This document shows, in pieces, positions 23,830-51,740 of a stretch of 64,000 nucleotides of DNA. The notes under the pieces are model-generated. The model was not told where the DNA came from and searched no databases. It saw only the letters and a list, made by a program, of their open reading frames with translations. This DNA is from an uncultured Alphaproteobacteria bacterium. GTDB taxonomy: Bacteria; Pseudomonadota; Alphaproteobacteria; Rhizobiales; Kaistiaceae. Made by a program: the position numbers and the translations under genes. Location: positions 84,298 to 148,297 of the forward strand of contig CAVUOD010000010.1 in NCBI GenBank assembly GCA_963743015.1, in the 5' to 3' direction. Numbering within the stretch: position 1 is the stretch's first letter; each line of letters starts with the position of its first letter.

Positions 23830-25183
23830 TCACACCATGTGGCGCATGTCGGCGGCGAAGGTCGGGAAGGCGTAGACCATCTCGCCGAATTCCGCAGTGG
23901 CGATGCCGTGGCGCATGGCCAGCGCGAAGACGTGGATCAGCTCCTCGCCGCCGTGGCCGACGATGTGGGCGCCGAGAATCCGTCCGCTGTCGCGCTCGCT
24001 GATCACCTTGGCCCAGGCGGCGGGTTCGGCGAAGGTGCGGGCGGAGAGCCAGTCGTGCATGTCGCTGACCGCGACATGCACGTCGAGGCCGCGGTCGCGG
24101 GCATCCTCTTCGGTCAGGCCGATGCTGGCGATGGCGGGGATCGTGTAGAGGCAGTAGGGGATCGCCGCATAGTCGGGCCGGTGCTTGGGTCCATCGACGA
24201 TGTTGCGGCCGACGAGGCGGCCCTCATAGGTGGCCAGCGGCGAGAGCTGCGGCGTATCGGGCAGGGCGTCGCCGACGATCCACACCGCCTTGTTCGAGGT
24301 CGAGCGCAGATGGTCGTCGTGCAGCAGGCGGCCATGCTCGACCGCGACCTCGCCGGATTCGATGTCGAGCCCTTCGGTGTTGGCGACGCGGCCGGCACCG
24401 TTGACCACCCGGTCGGCATCGACCGTGCGTTCCATGCCGTCCTCCTCGAAGGTCACGCGCAGGCGATCGCCGACCTCAGCGATCGCCTTGACGGCGATGC
24501 TGCCGCGCAGGTCGATGCCGAGGCGGCGCGTCTCGGCGAGGATCTGGTTCGACGGCGTCGGCATCGTGACGCGGCAGGAAGCGTCCGCCGGCCTGCAGGA
24601 TCGTCACCTTGGTTCCGGCGCGGGCATAGACGTGGCCGAACTCGAAGGCGATGACACCGCCGCCGACGAAGACCACGTCGCGCGGCTGCCGGGGCTCGCT
24701 CAGCACCTCGTCGGAGGTGATCATCAGCTCGGCGCCGGGGAAGGCGAGCGGGCGCGGCCGCGATCCGGTGGCGATGACGATGTGCCCGGCCTCGTAGATT
24801 TGGCCGCCGGCGCGAACCGCGTTGGGCGTGACGAAGTGGCCGTGGGCACGCACCAGATGCACGCCGCGCTTCTCGAGTGCCGCGGTGAGGGCGCCCGGTA
24901 TGTGGGCGATGATCTGCTTCTCGCGCGCGATCAGTTCCGCCCAGTCGAGCCGTGCCGGCCCGACCGCGATATGGTGGGCGCCGGCATGGGCGATCGTGTC
25001 GAGGGCGTGGGCGGCGGCGACCAGCACCTTCTTCGGCGTGCAGCCGCGGTTGGAGCAGGTGCCGCCCAGTTCGGCCGGCTCGAGCAGTGCCACCTTGAGG
25101 CCGGCATGGCGCGTCGGCACCGTTACCCCCATGCCGCCATTGCCGCCGCCGATGATCACGACGTCGTAACTGTGGTTGGCCAT
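23830..25183 (-). pseudogene. FAD-dependent pyridine nucleotide-disulfide oxidoreductase (glutathione reductase / dihydrolipoamide dehydrogenase-like), frame broken near 24541-24553
   Basis: N-terminus YDVVIIGGGNGGMG...LGGTCSNRGCTPKK (redox CxxxxC) ...VVFVGGGVIAFEF...DADAVE joins QILAETRRLGIDL...GDA...HIVGHGGEELIH. The junction GAA-C-CAG fits one extra C. Confidence 0.85.
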
Positions 25184-25340
25184 GTTGCGCCCTCCCGTTT
25201 GCGTTCCAGGCAGGATAGGGGAGCGGCGTTCACAGGGCGACGGGTGGCGCTGCACGATTCCGTCACGCGGTGTTGATGCAGATCAGCGTGCTGTCAGGTG
25301 TATCCAGGTCTAAGCGGGTGGGCGCGACAGCTGGAGAGGT

Positions 25341-48895: not shown

Positions 48896-50223
48896 TCAGT
48901 CGAGGGCGCCTTCCTGGGCGGCGATCCAGGTGATCACCGCCTCGGAGAAGCCGTTGACGCGCCGCCACGGACCGTTGCCGACGCCATGCTGGTAGGAGGC
49001 GACGTTGATCATGTATCCCGCGCCCTTGGGTGCGGGCACCTGATCGTGCGCCTGTTCGTCGGTGAAGACGATGAGGCGCGTCCCCTTCCTGTCGATCTCC
49101 GTCACTGCCTTGCCAAGCCAGGTCCCGCTATGCGGCTGGCTCGCGACGATCGCGTCACGCAGCGCGAAACCGCGGCGGGGCGGAATCTTCACCACCCTGT
49201 CGGAGAAGGTGAAGATCTCGACCTTGTCGCAGATTTCGCGGGCAAGGATCGCCAGACCGCAGGCGGCTTCCAGCCGCATCATGTAGGACTGGGCGGAGAG
49301 CGGCCAGTCCATCGAGGCCGACACGTCGATCAGCAGCCGCGTGCGTCCCTTCAGCCGCACATGGCTCTCGATCGACTTCAGCATTGCCGAATTCGAGCTC
49401 GGGCTCGAGGTCCGGCGCATGGCGTGCCGCCGCGATGAAGCGGAAAGGCAGGATGCGATCGGTGCGCATCGCCGAAAGCGCGCCGGCGATGGTCTCGTGC
49501 TCCACCCCGGCAGTCTGCATGAGGCGCAGATTGCGGAGCAAGGCGAGGCCACCCAGCTTGTTCTCGGCGATCAGACGCTCGAAGGTCGCGCGCTTGTCCT
49601 TGCCGGACGAGAGCTGGACCTCCCAGGTGTCGGGCGCCGGAAGCGTGCCATCGACGAGCTGCTTCCAGACCTTCTCCTGGGCCGCATCCTGCGGCTTGGC
49701 ATGGGTCAGGAACAGAACGTCCCTGATCCGCACCGCGCCGTCGCGGTCATACTTGGCGAGCTGATAGGCGTCGAACTTGGTCAGCGCCTTCGCCAGGCCC
49801 TTCTTCGCCTGGGCGGAGACGGGCTGGCGCTTGCGCTGCTGCATCGGCCCCAGCGCCTCGGCCCAGTAGATGGCGAGGAACTGGGTCAGCTCGTCCGGCC
49901 GCTGGATGATGCGCTCCAGCGTGTCGGCGACGAGGCCGCGATGGGCGGGGCTGCGCGCCATCTCGCGGACGATCAAGCAGCGGCGCATGGCGCAGCTTCA
50001 TGGCCTCGCGGGCCTCCACGGCGAGTGCCGCGACCTCGGCAGGCTCGACCTGCGGGACGAGCTTTGCCATCCGCTCGGCGATGGACACGCCGTCCTCATA
50101 GAACTGGTCCTCCCACAGGAGGCAGTTCATCAGCGTGCGCTTCAGCTCCTCGGCGGGCGTGAAGCGCCTGGCCCGCGCCCCCTCATGGGTGCGGGGGCGG
50201 AACAGCTTGTTGATGTTGGCCAT
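48896..50223 (-). pseudogene. rsr: TROVE + vWA domain protein (Ro60 orthologue, Rsr-like), two frame breaks (near 49974 and near 49390)
   Basis: GAGGAGG lies upstream of the ATG at 50223. MANINKLFRPRTHEGARA...LLWEDQFYEDG...AMKLRHAPLL, then IVREMARSPAHRG...LPFRFIAAARHAPDLEPELE, then AMLKSIE...LLIDVSASM (vWA MIDAS DxSxS)...IVFTDEQ. Both junctions fit one extra base. Confidence 0.8.
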
Positions 50224-50274
50224 GGAAACCTCCTCAGGAACAGCCATGAGTTTTCTAAGGTACGCACCGTAGAA

Positions 50275-50422
50275 CGGCGGGGAACGGACGACGCTGAACT
50301 GCCCGAAGGCTTTGACTGAGCTACGGCCTTGCGGCCGGCGGGATTTGAACCACGCGACCTCCTTGGCGCTCGTCGCGCCTCGGCGCTCCACCCGAAGTAT
50401 CAGACATCTTCACCACCGCCGC
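50275..50422 (-). ncRNA. Y-RNA-like module A (partial tRNA-like domain)
   Basis: The minus strand reads GCGGCGG-UGGUGAAG-AUGUCUG... A T-arm-like GCG(U)GG-UUCAAAU-CCCGC follows, then a CGGCC-GCAA-GGCCG hairpin and UAGCUCAGU. The module closes with ...CGUUCCCC-GCCG pairing back to its 5' end. Its 3' end is about 50 nt upstream of the rsr ATG. Confidence 0.55.
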
Positions 50423-50452
50423 ACCATCCCGCTCACGCGGGATGGGACGATT

Positions 50453-50597
50453 GCCGGGGAACGATCGAGACCGTACTGCCCCCTCGCGGGGGCTTCACAT
50501 GCTCTGCCACTGAGCTACGGAAGGCCTGGGCCTGTCCGGGAGGAATCGAACCTCCGACCCTGTGATTACCGAAGCAACGGTGCTCTTCACCACCGGC
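50453..50597 (-). ncRNA. Y-RNA-like module B with a circularly permuted tRNA-like (YrlA-type) domain
   Basis: 5' GCCGG-UGGUGAAG-GAG(C)ACCG. Then UCACA/UGUGA stem, AGGGUC, T-arm GGAGG-UUCGAUU-CCUCC and a closed acceptor-like hairpin. Then UA and D-arm GCUC-AGUGGCA-GAGC. 3' CGGUCUC...CGUUCCCC-GGC. Confidence 0.7.
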
Positions 50598-50606
50598 AAA
50601 GGGAAA

Positions 50607-50773
50607 CGCATGATCCGGGAACAGGCGATGCTGAGCTGCCGTCCCGAGGACGGCTGGTGCTCTGCCACTGAGCTACGGGCGCACAAGAGATTTGGCGCGC
50701 CCGGCGGGATTCGAACCCGCGACCGACCCGGTCTAACAGCCGAAGTAACAGACATCTTCACCACGGTCATGCG
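50607..50773 (-). ncRNA. Y-RNA-like module C with a circularly permuted tRNA-like (YrlA-type) domain
   Basis: 5' ...GUGGUGAAG-GAUG(U)CUG. T-arm GCGGG-UUCGAAU-CCCGC, then a 7-bp CGGGCGC/GCGCCCG acceptor-like stem. Then UA and D-arm GCUC-AGUGGCA-GAGC, identical to module B. 3' CAGCAUC...UGUUCCC. Confidence 0.7.
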
Positions 50774-50782
50774 TATGGGATT

Positions 50783-50866
50783 GGCGGGGAATGGTCGAGT
50801 TCTGTGTGCACGGCATTGCTGCCGTGCGCTTCACCCAAAGAAGTAACAGAGCTCATCACCACCGCC
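50783..50866 (-). ncRNA. Y-RNA-like module D (no tRNA-like domain, YrlB-like)
   Basis: GGCGG-UGGUGAUG-GAGCUCUGU, then two apical hairpins, then ACAGAACUC...AUUCCCC-GCC. Same closing architecture as the other modules. Confidence 0.6.
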
Positions 50867-50875
50867 AAAGAGGGA

Positions 50876-51042
50876 CGCTGGGGAACGGGCGATCACGGAA
50901 GTCCAGCCATCCGCTGCGCGAGCTTTCCCCGAGAGGAAGACCGGACCCGCGTCACGCTCGCCTTTCGCGAGGCAAGCTCCACGGCACGCATCGGCGCTGG
51001 CTCGATGTCGGAGCGAAGGATCCGTCATCTTCACCACCAGCG
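50876..51042 (-). ncRNA. Y-RNA-like module E (long apical region)
   Basis: CGCUGG-UGGUGAAG-GAU(G)ACGGA, then about 110 nt of hairpins, then UCCGU(G)AUC...CGUUCCCC-AGCG. Confidence 0.6.
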
Positions 51043-51048
51043 TATGGG

Positions 51049-51129
51049 TTTCCAGGGGAACGGTCGGCGGCCGGTTGGCCAAAGGCCTTCGGGGGCAGCG
51101 AAGTAACCGAACGCCTTCACCACCTGGAA
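51049..51129 (-). ncRNA. Y-RNA-like module F (short)
   Basis: UUCCAGG-UGGUGAAG-GCGUUCGGUU, then CUUCG/CGAAG and GGCC/GGCC hairpins, then AACCGGCCGC...CGUUCCCC-UGGAA. Confidence 0.6.
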
Positions 51130-51385
51130 CCTGGCGCCTCGAAAATTCCGAGGCTCAATTGCCAAAACGAAATAGCGTCGCGGCGCTCTCGGCCTATGGC
51201 GCGCCGCCAAGCGGACCAGAGTTCGCCCCGCCATCGGTGTCCGGCTCTCGCCTCGTTCCCTCCGACGGGCCCCGCGCTTCGGATGCATGACGCGGAGAGG
51301 CGCCAGCAATCCCGGAATCCGGGTCTTCCGCCCCGGCTTGCGCCGGGCCTCGTTCACAATGGGGGCTCCGGATGGGGCGGATATG

Positions 51386-51419
51386 AAAAACCCCTCCGGA
51401 GCACTCGGCTCGGGAGGGG
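51386..51419 (-). terminator. rho-independent terminator
   Basis: The minus strand reads CCCCUCC-N15-GGAGGGG followed by UUUUU. Confidence 0.75.
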
Positions 51420-51575
51420 TCCGATAACGGACGCTGCGGTTCGTTCAGAGCGAACCGCCTCCATGAGCCGGGCAAGCATCGGCAAATGGCCGCGCGCCAT
51501 TCAGCGATGTCAGTTTGATCGAATATCCGCGTTCCATCGTCTGGCTCATCTGCTGCGGACACCTGTCCGCGAAGG
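51420..51575 (-). ncRNA. candidate structured sRNA, about 190 nt including the terminator at 51386-51419
   Basis: No credible ORF. Possible promoter CTTGAC-N17-GTACAT at 51611-51583. The minus strand carries serial perfect hairpins: GCGGAC/GUCCGC, AAUGGC/GCCAUU, GCGGUUCG/CGAACCGC and GUCC/GGAC. A long-range AUGAGCC/GGCUCAU pairing is also possible. Confidence 0.35.
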
Positions 51576-51740
51576 GCGGTGCATGTACTCTTCACTTGTC
51601 CTGGCGTCAAGCACCAAGAAATTCTGTCTCCGCGTCGGCCCGACAAGTCGTGGGGTACGACGAGCCGGTGGCGAGCCGCCGCGCCTTCGGCGCTTGCCAC
51701 TCACGTCGTGGTGCCGACGGCTGCCCGAGCCCGAAGGCTG

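What the first reader, a model, noticed from the sequence alone, without database searches (positions are those of the whole stretch)
48896..51129. Ro60 (Rsr-like) gene preceded by six tandem Y-RNA-like modules, three carrying permuted tRNA-like domains
The 855 nt upstream of the TROVE+vWA gene, on the same strand, has no credible ORF. It resolves into six consecutive units that share one architecture. Each unit has a 5' closing-stem strand and then the conserved box UGGUGA(A/U)G (plus-strand CTTCACCAC six times, once as CATCACCAC). A second helix with a single bulged or mismatched base follows, then a variable apical region. The complementary strand of the second helix comes next, then a conserved (C/A)(G/U)UUCCCC box, then the 3' closing-stem strand. 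GG(U)GAA can pair with UUCCC leaving a bulged U, which is the type of conserved bulged helix that Ro60 proteins bind in Y RNAs. In modules B and C, and partly in A, the apical region is a circularly permuted tRNA. It reads anticodon-stem 3' strand, variable loop, perfect T-arm (GGAGG-UUCGAUU-CCUCC or GCGGG-UUCGAAU-CCCGC), an acceptor-like stem closed by a loop, UA, D-arm GCUC-AGUGGCA-GAGC, then the anticodon-stem 5' strand. That is the YrlA tRNA-mimic layout described for Salmonella and other bacteria. As far as I recall, described loci carry only a few Y RNAs. Six head-to-tail modules ending about 50 nt before the rsr start codon would be an unusually large array, and may be co-transcribed. 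Mixed tRNA-like and non-tRNA-like modules suggest diversified tethering partners.
Basis: partly seen in the sequence, partly recalled or inferred. Interest (0 to 1): 0.85.

Follow-up and report, generated by a model that had tools for sequence, protein, structure and literature searches.

The report
Six-unit Y RNA array before Ro60
A bacterial homologue of the Ro60 RNA-surveillance protein is preceded by six tightly packed, structurally related small-RNA genes (Y RNAs, two to three of them tRNA mimics); such arrays prove to be the rule in a large group of soil and water Alphaproteobacteria, which extends a known system rather than founding a new one.

Summary
On the minus strand, 51129-50274, six head-to-tail modules (80-169 nt, spacers 6-28 nt) each have a 7-10 bp closing stem, the box UGGUGA(A/U)G, a second helix, a variable apex, and (G/A)UUCC before the closing strand. 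They end 50 nt before a 441-codon TROVE+vWA (Ro60-like) gene, which carries two +1 frameshifts. The helices covary strongly across 346 such modules found upstream of 81 orthologous genes. M4 and M5 have the complete YrlA layout (T arm, closed acceptor-like stem, UA, D arm). M6 has a degenerate but conserved version, and M1-M3 have none. Rfam's YrlA model matches only the tRNA-like cores, below its gathering score. Six is not exceptional in this clade: the mode is 4, the range is 1-8, and 13 of 81 loci have 6 or more. It still exceeds any bacterial Y RNA locus I could find described. I read this as a new variant of the known Ro60/Y RNA system. Upstream I found two further conserved elements. 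One is a promoter with a ~30-34-codon leader ORF and a terminator, built like a ribosome-sensing attenuator. The other is a ~170-nt structured RNA with no Rfam match. In many relatives rtcB follows the Ro60 gene.

The parts
51582..51610 (-). Conserved sigma-70-type promoter of the leader: -35 TTGACG at 51610-51605, a 17-nt spacer, and -10 TACATG at 51587-51582.
   Evidence: TTGAC lies 195-216 nt upstream of the conserved terminator in 65 of 66 loci, against 9% of background windows. A conserved (T/C)A(T) -10-like hexamer follows at +23. The E. coli-consensus scanner does not report it.
51445..51549 (-). Leader ORF of 34 codons (MSQTMERGYSIKLTSLNGARPFADACPAHGGGSL). A second, universally conserved ATG lies at 51537. 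The stop codon sits in the loop of a hairpin.
   Evidence: An ORF of about 24-34 codons (longer where an upstream in-frame ATG is counted), ending 26-32 nt before the terminator, is kept in 64 of 67 loci although its sequence diverges. It has no Pfam or NCBIfam family.
51386..51419 (-). Intrinsic terminator: CCCCUCCCGAGC, a loop, GCUCCGGAGGGG and a U5 run. It is proposed to be regions 3:4 of an attenuator. The ORF's 3' end, GGCUCAUGGAGG, would be region 2, and the SD/start region region 1.
   Evidence: The terminator scan finds it. Its sequence is conserved upstream of the array in 67 of 82 loci. Duplex energies have medians of -21.4 (1:2) against -15.8 kcal/mol for shuffles, and -19.7 (2:3) against -12.9; 54 of 56 loci are better than their shuffles for 2:3. 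Only about 50 nt, with no promoter-like sequence, separate it from the first module in Hyphomonadaceae.
51136..51349 (-). Element E: a conserved multi-hairpin RNA (core 51349-51177, plus a hairpin at 51154-51136) between the terminator and the first module. Its role is unknown.
   Evidence: It is conserved at 70-76% identity in Bradyrhizobium, Rhizomicrobium and Roseiarcus loci. RNAalifold on 25 sequences gives 42 pairs, 21 of them with compensatory changes. It has no Rfam match even at E<=5. It is absent in Hyphomonadaceae.
51050..51129 (-). Module M1 (80 nt): a short Y-like RNA with no tRNA-like domain.
   Evidence: Closing stem UUCCAGG/CCUGGAA, box UGGUGAAG and 3' box CGUUCC. Fold z-score -2.2. 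Similar apical sequence is found only in two Roseiarcus loci.
50875..51043 (-). Module M2 (169 nt): a long Y-like RNA with no T or D arm.
   Evidence: Closing stem ACGCUGG/CCAGCGU and box UGGUGAAG. Fold z-score -2.0. A ~50-nt apical segment is shared with 5 loci.
50781..50868 (-). Module M3 (88 nt): a short Y-like RNA with the variant box UGGUGAUG.
   Evidence: Closing stem UUGGCGG/CCGCCAA. The box change A->U is matched by G->A in the 3' box (CAUUCC). Fold z-score -4.4.
50607..50773 (-). Module M4 (167 nt): a complete YrlA-type module with T arm, closed acceptor-like stem, UA and D arm.
   Evidence: Rfam YrlA scores 36.5 bits (E 5e-6 in a 1.3-kb search) over model positions 27-81. T and D arms are present. 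ARAGORN's 'tRNA-???' at 50693-50770 is this module. Fold z-score -3.9. The type is found in 69 loci.
50451..50599 (-). Module M5 (149 nt): a complete YrlA-type module.
   Evidence: Rfam YrlA scores 30.9 bits over model positions 23-89. RNAalifold on 20 orthologues recovers the closing stem, helix 2, T arm, acceptor-like stem and D arm. Fold z-score -3.0. The type is found in 51 loci.
50274..50422 (-). Module M6 (149 nt): a Y-like module with a degenerate T arm and D arm. It ends 50 nt before the start codon.
   Evidence: Rfam YrlA scores 17.6 bits over the full model length, and the tRNA model 20.5 bits. The type is conserved as such in 33 loci and is 91% identical in L081. Fold z-score is only -1.1.
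48896..50223 (-). Ro60-like gene (TROVE plus vWA with a DVSAS MIDAS motif), 441 codons, interrupted by two +1 frameshifts (an extra T near 49975 and near 49391). Shine-Dalgarno GAGGAGG at 50235-50229.
   Evidence: The repaired product is 92% identical to the intact protein P0001. The best PDB match is 9kop/9l5y at E 5e-26. The 13 best Foldseek matches are all Ro60.

Best explanation
The region is the non-coding half of a Ro60/Y RNA locus.

Six Y RNA genes lie head to tail on the strand of a short (441-aa) Ro60 homologue. They are most likely transcribed with it as one precursor and cut into separate RNAs of about 80-170 nt.

Each RNA closes its 5' and 3' ends into a stem. Next to that stem lies the invariant bulged helix formed by UGGUGAAG and GUUCC. 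This corresponds in position, and nearly in sequence, to the GNCGAAN0-1G Ro60-binding motif of YrlA RNAs, and I infer that it docks the RNA on the outer face of the Ro60 ring.

The variable apex is the effector end. In M4 and M5 it is a circularly permuted tRNA mimic. In M6 it is a conserved divergent version. In M1-M3 it consists of unrelated hairpins. Different Y RNAs could therefore couple the same Ro60 to different partners, or gate its cavity differently.

Shown here: the architecture, the covariation, the linkage to the gene in more than 80 genomes, and the Ro60 nature of the protein. Inferred: binding, processing, tethering and co-transcription.
For: Architecture and motif enrichment in the window.

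Conservation. 346 modules lie upstream of the orthologous gene in 81 loci, on the same strand. The box is about 19-fold enriched there.

Covariation.
- On 60 diverse modules, 86.7% of cells are paired against 69.9% in shuffles (0 of 500 reach it). The covariation score is 0.462 against 0.141, and slid registers give 40-60%.
- Helix-2 pair (9,-8) is paired in 91% against 43% for shuffles, with all six pair types. This helix was not used to select modules.
- Real closing arms find a partner of <= -9 kcal/mol in 91% of cases, against 20% with swapped arms.

tRNA-like domains. A T arm precedes a D arm in 123 of 123 modules that have both. There are local YrlA matches for M4 and M5. The consensus fold of M5 orthologues shows every YrlA element.

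Module types M4, M5 and M6 are each conserved across genera.

Protein: TROVE at 70 bits, phage Ro60 at E 5e-26, and Foldseek top 13 all Ro60.

Gene packing. Spacers are 6-28 nt and there is no internal terminator.

Precedents in the literature.
- YrlA lies within 4 kb of the Ro60 gene on the same strand.
- M. smegmatis YrlA and YrlB are processed from one precursor upstream of rsr.
- The GNCGAAN0-1G motif is proposed as the Rsr contact (PMC4201824).
- The YrlA module layout is described in 10.1101/312249.

The RNA ligase gene rtcB follows the gene in 28 of 75 relatives, as in the Salmonella rsr-yrlBA-rtcBA operon.
Against: - No module reaches Rfam's YrlA gathering score, here or in 13 related loci.
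- The box is GGUGAAG and not GNCGAAG.
- M6 alone does not fold better than shuffles (z -1.1).
- There are no expression, processing or binding data.
- The Ro60 gene of this window has two frameshifts and no rtcB next to it, so this copy might be inactive.
- Modules were found with a rule that requires a closing stem, which inflates the closing-stem statistics. Helix 2 and the swapped-arm control are free of that bias.
Confidence: 0.8

Rival explanations
1. The modules are not released as stable Y RNAs. They act in cis as a long structured 5' leader of the Ro60 mRNA, for example as a set of Ro60 binding sites for autoregulation or mRNA stabilisation.
For: The array ends 50 nt before the start codon, with no promoter or terminator detected between them. 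The only conserved promoter I found lies upstream of the leader ORF.
Against: M. smegmatis Y RNAs in the same position are processed from a precursor and are bound by Rsr (PMC4201824). Each module is an autonomous closed stem, and distinct apex types are conserved. Complete tRNA-like domains are hard to explain as leader structure.
Confidence: 0.1
2. In this particular genome the locus is decaying. The Ro60 gene is a pseudogene and the array is a non-functional remnant.
For: There are two +1 frameshifts in the gene. No rtcB or kptA lies downstream, unlike many relatives. The closest relative, L081, has already lost or degraded modules.
Against: Both frameshifts are a single extra T next to a T. 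An unrelated oxidoreductase gene in the same window is also split by a frameshift, which points to assembly indel errors. Apart from the frameshifts the protein is 92% identical to an intact homologue over its full length. All six closing stems are intact.
Confidence: 0.15
3. The region is a degenerate tRNA gene cluster or a family of tRNA-derived repeats, and its position next to a TROVE gene is a coincidence.
For: ARAGORN calls a pseudo-tRNA in M4, and the Rfam tRNA model gives weak matches. One relative (L035) has six real tRNA genes just upstream of its array.
Against: The order is always T arm before D arm, with a closed acceptor stem (123 of 123). Half of the modules have no tRNA-like part yet share the box and stems. 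Linkage to the gene holds in 81 loci across orders, and also in a phage and a Deinococcus plasmid.
Confidence: 0.02

Closest known systems
Salmonella Typhimurium rsr-yrlB-yrlA-rtcB-rtcA operon (YrlA and YrlB; Chen et al. 2013, 2014; PMC4201824; structure in 10.1101/312249)
   Same: - The Ro60 homologue and its Y RNAs are on one strand.
- One class of Y RNA has a Ro60-binding stem plus a permuted tRNA mimic: T arm, closed acceptor stem, UA, D arm.
- A second class lacks a complete tRNA-like domain.
- It is linked to the RtcB RNA ligase, as are 28 of 75 relatives of this locus.
   Different: - Salmonella has two Y RNAs placed after rsr. Here there are six placed before it.
- The box is GGUGAAG and not GNCGAAG.
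- The protein is a short 441-aa subfamily, far below NCBIfam's Rsr equivalog cut-off (18.6 against 900 bits).
- No RtcR or sigma-54 regulator is adjacent. A leader ORF with a terminator lies upstream instead.
Mycobacterium smegmatis YrlA and YrlB upstream of rsr (PMC4201824)
   Same: The Y RNAs lie upstream of the Ro60 gene on the same strand and are processed from a single precursor. One is a full tRNA mimic and the other has only a T arm. This resembles the mix seen here of complete, T-arm-only and arm-less modules.
   Different: M. smegmatis has two RNAs and not four to eight. Its YrlA has a 7-bp acceptor stem that RNase P cleaves. M4 here also has a 7-bp closed stem, but cleavage is untested.
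Deinococcus radiodurans Yrn1/Yrn2 with Rsr and PNPase (the RYPER complex)
   Same: Several small RNAs are encoded upstream of rsr (four were seen, of which Yrn1 and Yrn2 are called Y RNAs). The working model is taken from this system: the Y RNA tethers Ro60 to an effector.
   Different: Those RNAs are metazoan-like Y RNAs with a different box. The protein is the long Rsr type, and PDB 2nvo matches this protein only at E 0.0045 by sequence. A Deinococcus gobiensis plasmid does carry the short type, with two UGGUGAAG modules.
Thermus phage phiLo Ro60 with Yrl1 and Yrl2 (PMC12135203; PDB 9KOP, 9L5Y)
   Same: It is the closest solved protein (E 5e-26; best Foldseek match). Two Y-like RNAs lie upstream of the gene and were identified by a CGAA motif. 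Homologues with 40-52% identity occur in Brevundimonas, Caulobacter (CcrColossus), Xanthomonas, Ralstonia and Rhizobium phages.
   Different: That locus is on a phage and has two RNAs. The phage loci I examined have 0-2 modules with this box. The present locus is chromosomal, lying among a GST gene, modABC and other housekeeping genes.
Ribosome-dependent transcription attenuators with leader peptides (for example trpL of Sinorhizobium; PMC6614838). This comparison concerns the upstream element only.
   Same: It has a promoter, a short ORF, a four-region alternative pairing and an intrinsic terminator directly upstream of the regulated genes.
   Different: There is no run of codons for one amino acid. 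The regulated unit would be non-coding Y RNAs plus an RNA-surveillance or repair gene. Nothing has been tested experimentally.

Membership tests
Ro60 / TROVE proteins | TROVE domain above Pfam's gathering score | tested here: met
   PF05731 scores 70.1 bits against a cut-off of 23 on the frameshift-repaired protein. Intact homologues carry the same annotation.
Ro60 / TROVE proteins | C-terminal von Willebrand A domain with a MIDAS motif | tested here: inconclusive
   vWA_Ro60 and VWA_2 each score 18.5 bits, below their cut-offs of 27.7 and 27. A DxSxS motif (DVSAS) is present, and the model's C-terminal alpha/beta domain matches vWA structures.
Ro60 / TROVE proteins | Overall Ro60 fold (HEAT-repeat ring plus vWA) | tested here: met
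   The AlphaFold2 model of the 92%-identical P0001 has mean pLDDT 78. Its 13 best Foldseek matches in the PDB are all Ro60 structures from phage phiLo, D. radiodurans, Xenopus and human (E 4.5e-18 to 3.9e-9). TM-scores are only 0.4-0.5.
Rsr (NCBIfam equivalog NF041674) | Score above the equivalog cut-off | tested here: not met
   It scores 18.6 bits against a cut-off of 900. I therefore call it a Ro60 homologue of a distinct short subfamily and not Rsr in the strict sense.
Ro60 / TROVE proteins | Intact reading frame in this window | tested here: not met
   There are two +1 frameshifts, near 49975 and 49391. They are probably assembly errors, because another gene in the window is also frameshifted.
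YrlA (Rfam RF02553) | Covariance-model score at or above the gathering score (69 bits) | tested here: not met
   M4 scores 36.5, M5 30.9 and M6 17.6 bits. The M4 and M5 matches cover only the tRNA-like core (model positions 23-89 at most), while the weak M6 match spans the full model. There are no hits in 13 related loci.
YrlA (as defined by Chen et al. 2014 and Wang et al. 2018) | Effector module in the order T stem-loop, closed acceptor-like stem-loop, UA, D stem-loop, joined to the Ro60 stem by an anticodon-like stem | tested here: met
   This is met for M4 and M5, partly met for M6, and not met for M1-M3.
YrlA (as defined by Chen et al. 2014) | GNCGAAN0-1G motif near the 5' end | tested here: inconclusive
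   All modules have GGUGA(A/U)G at the equivalent place. This differs from the motif by U for C at its third position, and M3 also has U for the second A of GAA. The box is TGGTGAAG in 311 of 346 modules.
YrlA (as defined by Chen et al. 2014) | Encoded within 4 kb of the Ro60 gene on the same strand | tested here: met
   The array lies 50-906 nt upstream on the same strand. The same holds in 81 related loci.
Y RNAs in general | 5' and 3' ends pair into a stem that carries a conserved bulged helix | tested here: met
   The closing stem plus GG:CC, a bulged U and GA:UU is 94.5% paired, with 7 of 11 pairs changing on both sides.
Y RNAs in general | Bound by Ro60 in the cell and expressed as a discrete small RNA | not testable with these tools
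   This needs RIP-seq, Northern blots or gel shifts.

The most novel reading that the evidence does not exclude
The array is one part of a larger self-contained operon, ordered as follows:

1. a conserved promoter;
2. a leader ORF of about 24-34 codons whose 3' end can pair either with its own start region or with the 5' arm of an invariant terminator;
3. in Hyphomicrobiales, an unclassified ~170-nt structured RNA;
4. four to eight Y RNAs of several conserved types;
5. the Ro60 gene, often followed by rtcB.

On this reading, ribosome stalling on the leader would open the terminator. That would switch on a whole repertoire of Y RNAs together with Ro60 and the RNA ligase. The RNA-surveillance and repair module would then be induced directly by translational distress. 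This would replace the RtcR/sigma-54 control known from enterobacteria, and each Y RNA type would direct Ro60 to a different partner.
Probability: 0.3. Interest if true: 0.8.

Novelty: new variant of a known kind. Interest (0 to 1): 0.6.

Why it matters
Bacterial Y RNAs have been studied in only a few species, each with two characterised Y RNAs. What their tRNA-like ends bind, and why a cell needs more than one, are open questions.

This clade is very abundant in soil and freshwater. Its Ro60 homologue returned at least 8,000 database matches (the scoring cap), and the best 120 are all 78-92% identical 441-aa proteins. It carries four to eight Y RNAs of several conserved types next to one Ro60 gene. 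The clade includes cultivable, genetically tractable Bradyrhizobium strains. It therefore offers a natural panel for asking which apex recruits which partner.

The arrays are invisible to the current Rfam model, so they go unannotated.

If the upstream leader ORF and terminator prove to be an attenuator, they would show a second, RtcR-independent way of switching on the Ro60/RtcB RNA-repair module.

Tried and rejected
- **Rfam at gathering thresholds.** It found nothing in the window or in 13 related loci apart from real tRNAs. The relaxed search gave only partial YrlA matches.
- **Tandem Repeats Finder.** It found nothing, so the modules are not sequence repeats.
- **Alternative hairpin GAAG:CUUC within the 5' half.** Rejected, because CUUC does not change when the box does.
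- **GGAAC...CGAU in element E as an EcfG/ECF promoter.** Rejected, because the spacer varies from about 17 to 31 nt and forms a variable-length hairpin.
- **A sigma-54 promoter at TGGCAA near 51165.** The spacing is wrong by my reading of the sequence. I did not pursue it.
- **E. coli-type promoter scans.** They found nothing anywhere, including at the conserved TTGAC promoter.
- **Families for the leader peptide.** Pfam and NCBIfam gave none.
- **Exact-pattern scan of IMG/VR for the box.** Most hits are therefore probably chance, and it says little about phage arrays.
- **Plasmid search.** It found no rhizobial plasmid copy.
- **Reviews.** The 2019 and 2020 Ro60/Y RNA reviews (PMC6542706, PMC10870794) are not held, so I could not check their statements on Y RNA numbers. 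The supplementary tables of Chen et al. 2014 are not held either.


Full report
**What is in the sequence**

Read on the minus strand, 51129-50274 holds six consecutive units:

| Module | Coordinates | Length |
|---|---|---|
| M1 | 51129-51050 | 80 nt |
| M2 | 51043-50875 | 169 nt |
| M3 | 50868-50781 | 88 nt |
| M4 | 50773-50607 | 167 nt |
| M5 | 50599-50451 | 149 nt |
| M6 | 50422-50274 | 149 nt |

The spacers between them are 6, 6, 7, 7 and 28 nt.

Each unit is built in the same order:
- a 7-bp closing strand (10 bp with one bulge in M4);
- the box UGGUGAAG (UGGUGAUG in M3);
- a helix of about 8 bp with one bulged or mismatched base, whose first pair uses the last G of the box;
- the motif (U/A)UNCUUC(G);
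- a variable apex;
- the return strand of the helix;
- G-N-Y-Y-R-UUCC;
- the return closing strand.

GGTGGTGAWG occurs six times in the 64-kb window against 0.15 expected. The 3' box on its own is not enriched. Tandem Repeats Finder sees nothing, so the units share architecture and not sequence. All six minimum-energy folds contain the closing stem. Z-scores against dinucleotide shuffles run from -4.4 (M3) to -1.1 (M6).

**The gene**

The array ends 50 nt before an ATG at 50223, which is preceded by GAGGAGG. The reading frame is broken twice. Each break is a single extra T beside a T, near 49975 and 49391.

Removing them gives 441 residues, the same length as the homologues and 92% identical to the best one.

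- Pfam TROVE scores 70 bits. The vWA models score below their cut-offs, but a DVSAS MIDAS motif is present.
- The closest solved protein by sequence is Ro60 of Thermus phage phiLo (E 5e-26 over residues 11-435). D. radiodurans Rsr matches only at E 0.0045.
- NCBIfam's Rsr equivalog is missed by a wide margin, 18.6 against 900 bits.
- An AlphaFold2 model of the 92%-identical homologue (pLDDT 78) has only Ro60 structures as its 13 best PDB matches.

The protein is therefore a Ro60 homologue of a short subfamily. That subfamily also occurs at 40-58% identity in jumbo phages of Brevundimonas and Caulobacter (including CcrColossus), in Xanthomonas, Ralstonia and Rhizobium phages, and on a Deinococcus gobiensis plasmid.

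A pyridine-nucleotide-disulphide oxidoreductase gene at 23830-25282 is also split by a frameshift. I therefore think the frameshifts are more likely assembly errors than decay, but I cannot decide this.

**Related loci**

A scan of one genome per species returned 80 loci with a 71-81% identical gene. They come from Bradyrhizobium, Rhizomicrobium, Bauldia, Roseiarcus, Hyphomonadaceae and relatives. One further metagenomic contig (L081) carries the 92% homologue.

I searched with this rule: the box, then UUCC within 300 nt, then a closing duplex of at most -6 kcal/mol. It finds 346 modules in the 2 kb upstream of the gene, on its strand. The box is TGGTGAAG in 311 of them.

Arrays hold 1 to 8 modules. 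The mode is 4 (38 loci), 27 of 81 loci have 5 or more, and 13 have 6 or more. The box is about 19 times denser upstream of the gene than elsewhere in the same loci.

Six is thus ordinary for the clade. Array composition changes quickly. The closest relative keeps orthologues of M4, M5 and M6 and one degraded unit, and its M5 orthologue has lost the whole tRNA-like domain.

**Is the structure real?**

I joined the first 28 and last 31 nt of each module, which aligns without gaps.

- On 60 diverse modules, 86.7% of cells form standard pairs against 69.9% in shuffles (0 of 500 reach it). The covariation score is 0.462 against 0.141. Sliding the 3' partners gives 40-60%.
- The closing-stem figures are inflated, because a closing stem was required to call a module. 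Real 5' arms find a partner of -9 kcal/mol or better in 91% of cases, against 20% when arms are swapped between modules.
- Helix 2 played no part in the selection and still covaries. Its third pair is paired in 91% of 320 distinct modules against 43% in shuffles, using all six pair types.
- The GG:CC and G.U/A-U pairs between the two boxes never vary, so they give no evidence for or against the pairing.
- The A opposite G next to them is the position that changes on both sides in M3 (A to U with G to A). That is a single case.
- A competing GAAG:CUUC hairpin is not supported.

**tRNA-like domains**

Of 339 modules, 123 have both a T arm and a D arm, and the T arm comes first in all 123. A further 75 have a T arm only, 10 a D arm only, and 131 have neither.

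In the window, M4 and M5 are complete: T arm, a closed stem of 7 bp or so, UA, then D arm GCUC-AGUGGCA-GAGC. That is the layout published for YrlA. RNAalifold on 20 orthologues of M5 recovers each element, with compensatory changes in the T and acceptor-like stems.

Rfam's YrlA model aligns to these cores at 36.5 and 30.9 bits, and to M6 at 17.6 bits, against a gathering score of 69. It finds nothing at gathering level in 13 related loci. ARAGORN's odd tRNA at 50693-50770 is M4.

M6 has a T stem with an inserted base and a broken D stem. This version is conserved in 33 loci, while M5-type and M4-type apices are found in 51 and 69 loci. M2's apex recurs in 5 loci and M1's in 2, and M3's has no real match (one 18-nt hit in a single locus). 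So several distinct Y RNA types are old and maintained, and others turn over.

**How it most likely works**

What follows is inference from published systems.

- Ro60 contacts mainly the 5' strand of the conserved helix in the Y RNA stem, and the other end of the Y RNA binds an effector (PMC4201824; 10.1101/312249).
- Here the invariant UGGUGAAG/GUUCC helix sits where GNCGAAN0-1G sits in YrlA. It is the obvious candidate for the Ro60 contact.
- The tight packing, the absence of any terminator-like site between 51386 and the gene, and the M. smegmatis precedent of two Y RNAs processed from one precursor upstream of rsr all favour one transcript that is cut into individual RNAs.
- In 28 of 75 relatives rtcB follows the gene on the same strand. 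In L081 a Tpt1/KptA gene does. In this window neither is present. This ties the locus to RNA repair, as in Salmonella.

Two more conserved non-coding elements precede the array.

*Leader ORF and terminator.*
- A TTGAC -35 and a (T/C)AT-type -10 are found in 65 of 66 loci at a fixed distance from a nearly invariant intrinsic terminator (window 51419-51386). TTGAC occurs in 9% of background windows.
- Between them lies an ORF of about 24-34 codons (window 51549-51445). It is retained in 64 of 67 loci, and its stop codon is always 26-32 nt before the terminator, in the loop of a hairpin.
- The ORF's 3' end (GGCUCAUGGGAG, or CUCGCGGAGG in Hyphomonadaceae) can pair with the start region. There the two clades differ on both strands (CAUGAGCC/GGCUCAUG against CGAGAAAG/CUUUCUCG).
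- It can alternatively pair with the terminator's 5' arm. Both duplexes are 5-7 kcal/mol better than shuffles, in 42 and 54 of 56 loci.
- In Hyphomonadaceae only about 50 nt, with no promoter-like sequence, separate the terminator from the first module.

This is the anatomy of a ribosome-dependent attenuator. I propose, but have not shown, that it controls the array and the gene. I found no paper describing it.

*Element E.* In Hyphomicrobiales-type loci, including this window (core 51349-51177), a structured RNA of roughly 170-200 nt lies between the terminator and the first module. RNAalifold gives 42 pairs, 21 with compensatory changes, and invariant junction sequences. It has no Rfam match. 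I cannot say what it does.

**Comparison with what is known, and novelty**

The kind is known: YrlA-like RNAs next to Ro60 genes in more than 250 species, with further Y RNAs that lack a full tRNA-like domain. New here, as far as the searchable literature goes:
- arrays of four to eight;
- the distinct box;
- the conserved set of module types;
- the fact that the whole clade escapes the curated model.

I could not read the 2019 and 2020 reviews or the 2014 supplementary tables. A prior mention of multi-copy loci cannot be excluded. Chen et al. report 355 YrlAs in 276 genomes, so loci with more than one tRNA-like YrlA were already seen.

I file the locus as a new variant of a known kind. Interest is moderate to fairly high, mainly because it gives a tractable system for asking what different Y RNA apices do, and because of the possible attenuator.

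Noticed in passing
window 51610-51386 (-): A conserved promoter, a leader ORF (34 codons in the window) and a near-invariant intrinsic terminator lie directly upstream of the array. The alternative pairings 1:2, 2:3 and 3:4 are typical of a ribosome-dependent attenuator. The ORF is kept in 64 of 67 related loci with its stop codon 26-32 nt before the terminator.
   Followed up: partly
window 51349-51136 (-); alignment A1: A conserved multi-hairpin RNA of about 170-200 nt lies between the terminator and the first Y module. It has 21 pairs with compensatory changes in 25 sequences and no Rfam match. It is present in Bradyrhizobium, Rhizomicrobium and Roseiarcus-type loci and absent in Hyphomonadaceae.
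   Followed up: partly
window 23830-25282 (-): A pyridine-nucleotide-disulphide oxidoreductase gene is split into two overlapping ORFs by a frameshift (Pyr_redox_2 positions 1-184 and 185-291). This suggests indel errors in the assembly and bears on the two frameshifts in the Ro60 gene.
   Followed up: partly
L081 5400-5960 (closest relative, 92% identical Ro60): The array there has only three intact modules and one degraded unit. The orthologue of M5 has lost its entire T arm, acceptor stem and D arm (about 55 nt) but keeps the Ro60 stem. Array content therefore changes between close relatives.
   Followed up: partly
L086 9435-10598; L087 9397-10602; L081 7454-8038: The RNA ligase gene rtcB directly follows the Ro60 gene on the same strand in 28 of 75 related loci, in two RtcB types about 31% identical to each other. 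In L081 an RNA 2'-phosphotransferase (Tpt1/KptA) gene follows instead. The window has neither: an SRPBCC gene on the other strand and modABC follow.
   Followed up: partly
L035 269-1808: A Roseiarcus genome has six genuine tRNA genes (Rfam tRNA 40-55 bits) on the same strand just upstream of its Y RNA array.
   Followed up: no
L083 (Xanthomonas phage MET23-P3) about 633 nt upstream of its gene; L085 (Deinococcus gobiensis plasmid P2) 237 and 160 nt upstream: The same signature, UGGUGAAG then 6-8 nt then GGUUNCUUC, occurs upstream of the short-type Ro60 gene in a 43-kb phage and on a Deinococcus plasmid. Caulobacter and Brevundimonas jumbo phages have a different box but four to six T-loop motifs within 1 kb upstream.
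   Followed up: partly
window 50450-50423 (-): The only long spacer in the array, between M5 and M6, holds a hairpin CCCAUCCCGC-GUGA-GCGGGAUGG with no U run. It is conserved in L081. It could be a processing signal.
   Followed up: no
window 48890-48862 (-): A strong GC hairpin, AAGGCCGGACGCC-GAUG-GCGUCCGGCCUU, lies 6 nt after the Ro60 stop codon with no U run. It lies between convergent genes and may terminate both.
   Followed up: no
window 51916-51740 (-): A 58-codon ORF with a hydrophobic stretch (MRSIARSQ...FVLWIAVYAAFMLALIAF...) lies between the GST gene and the leader promoter. I did not examine it.
   Followed up: no
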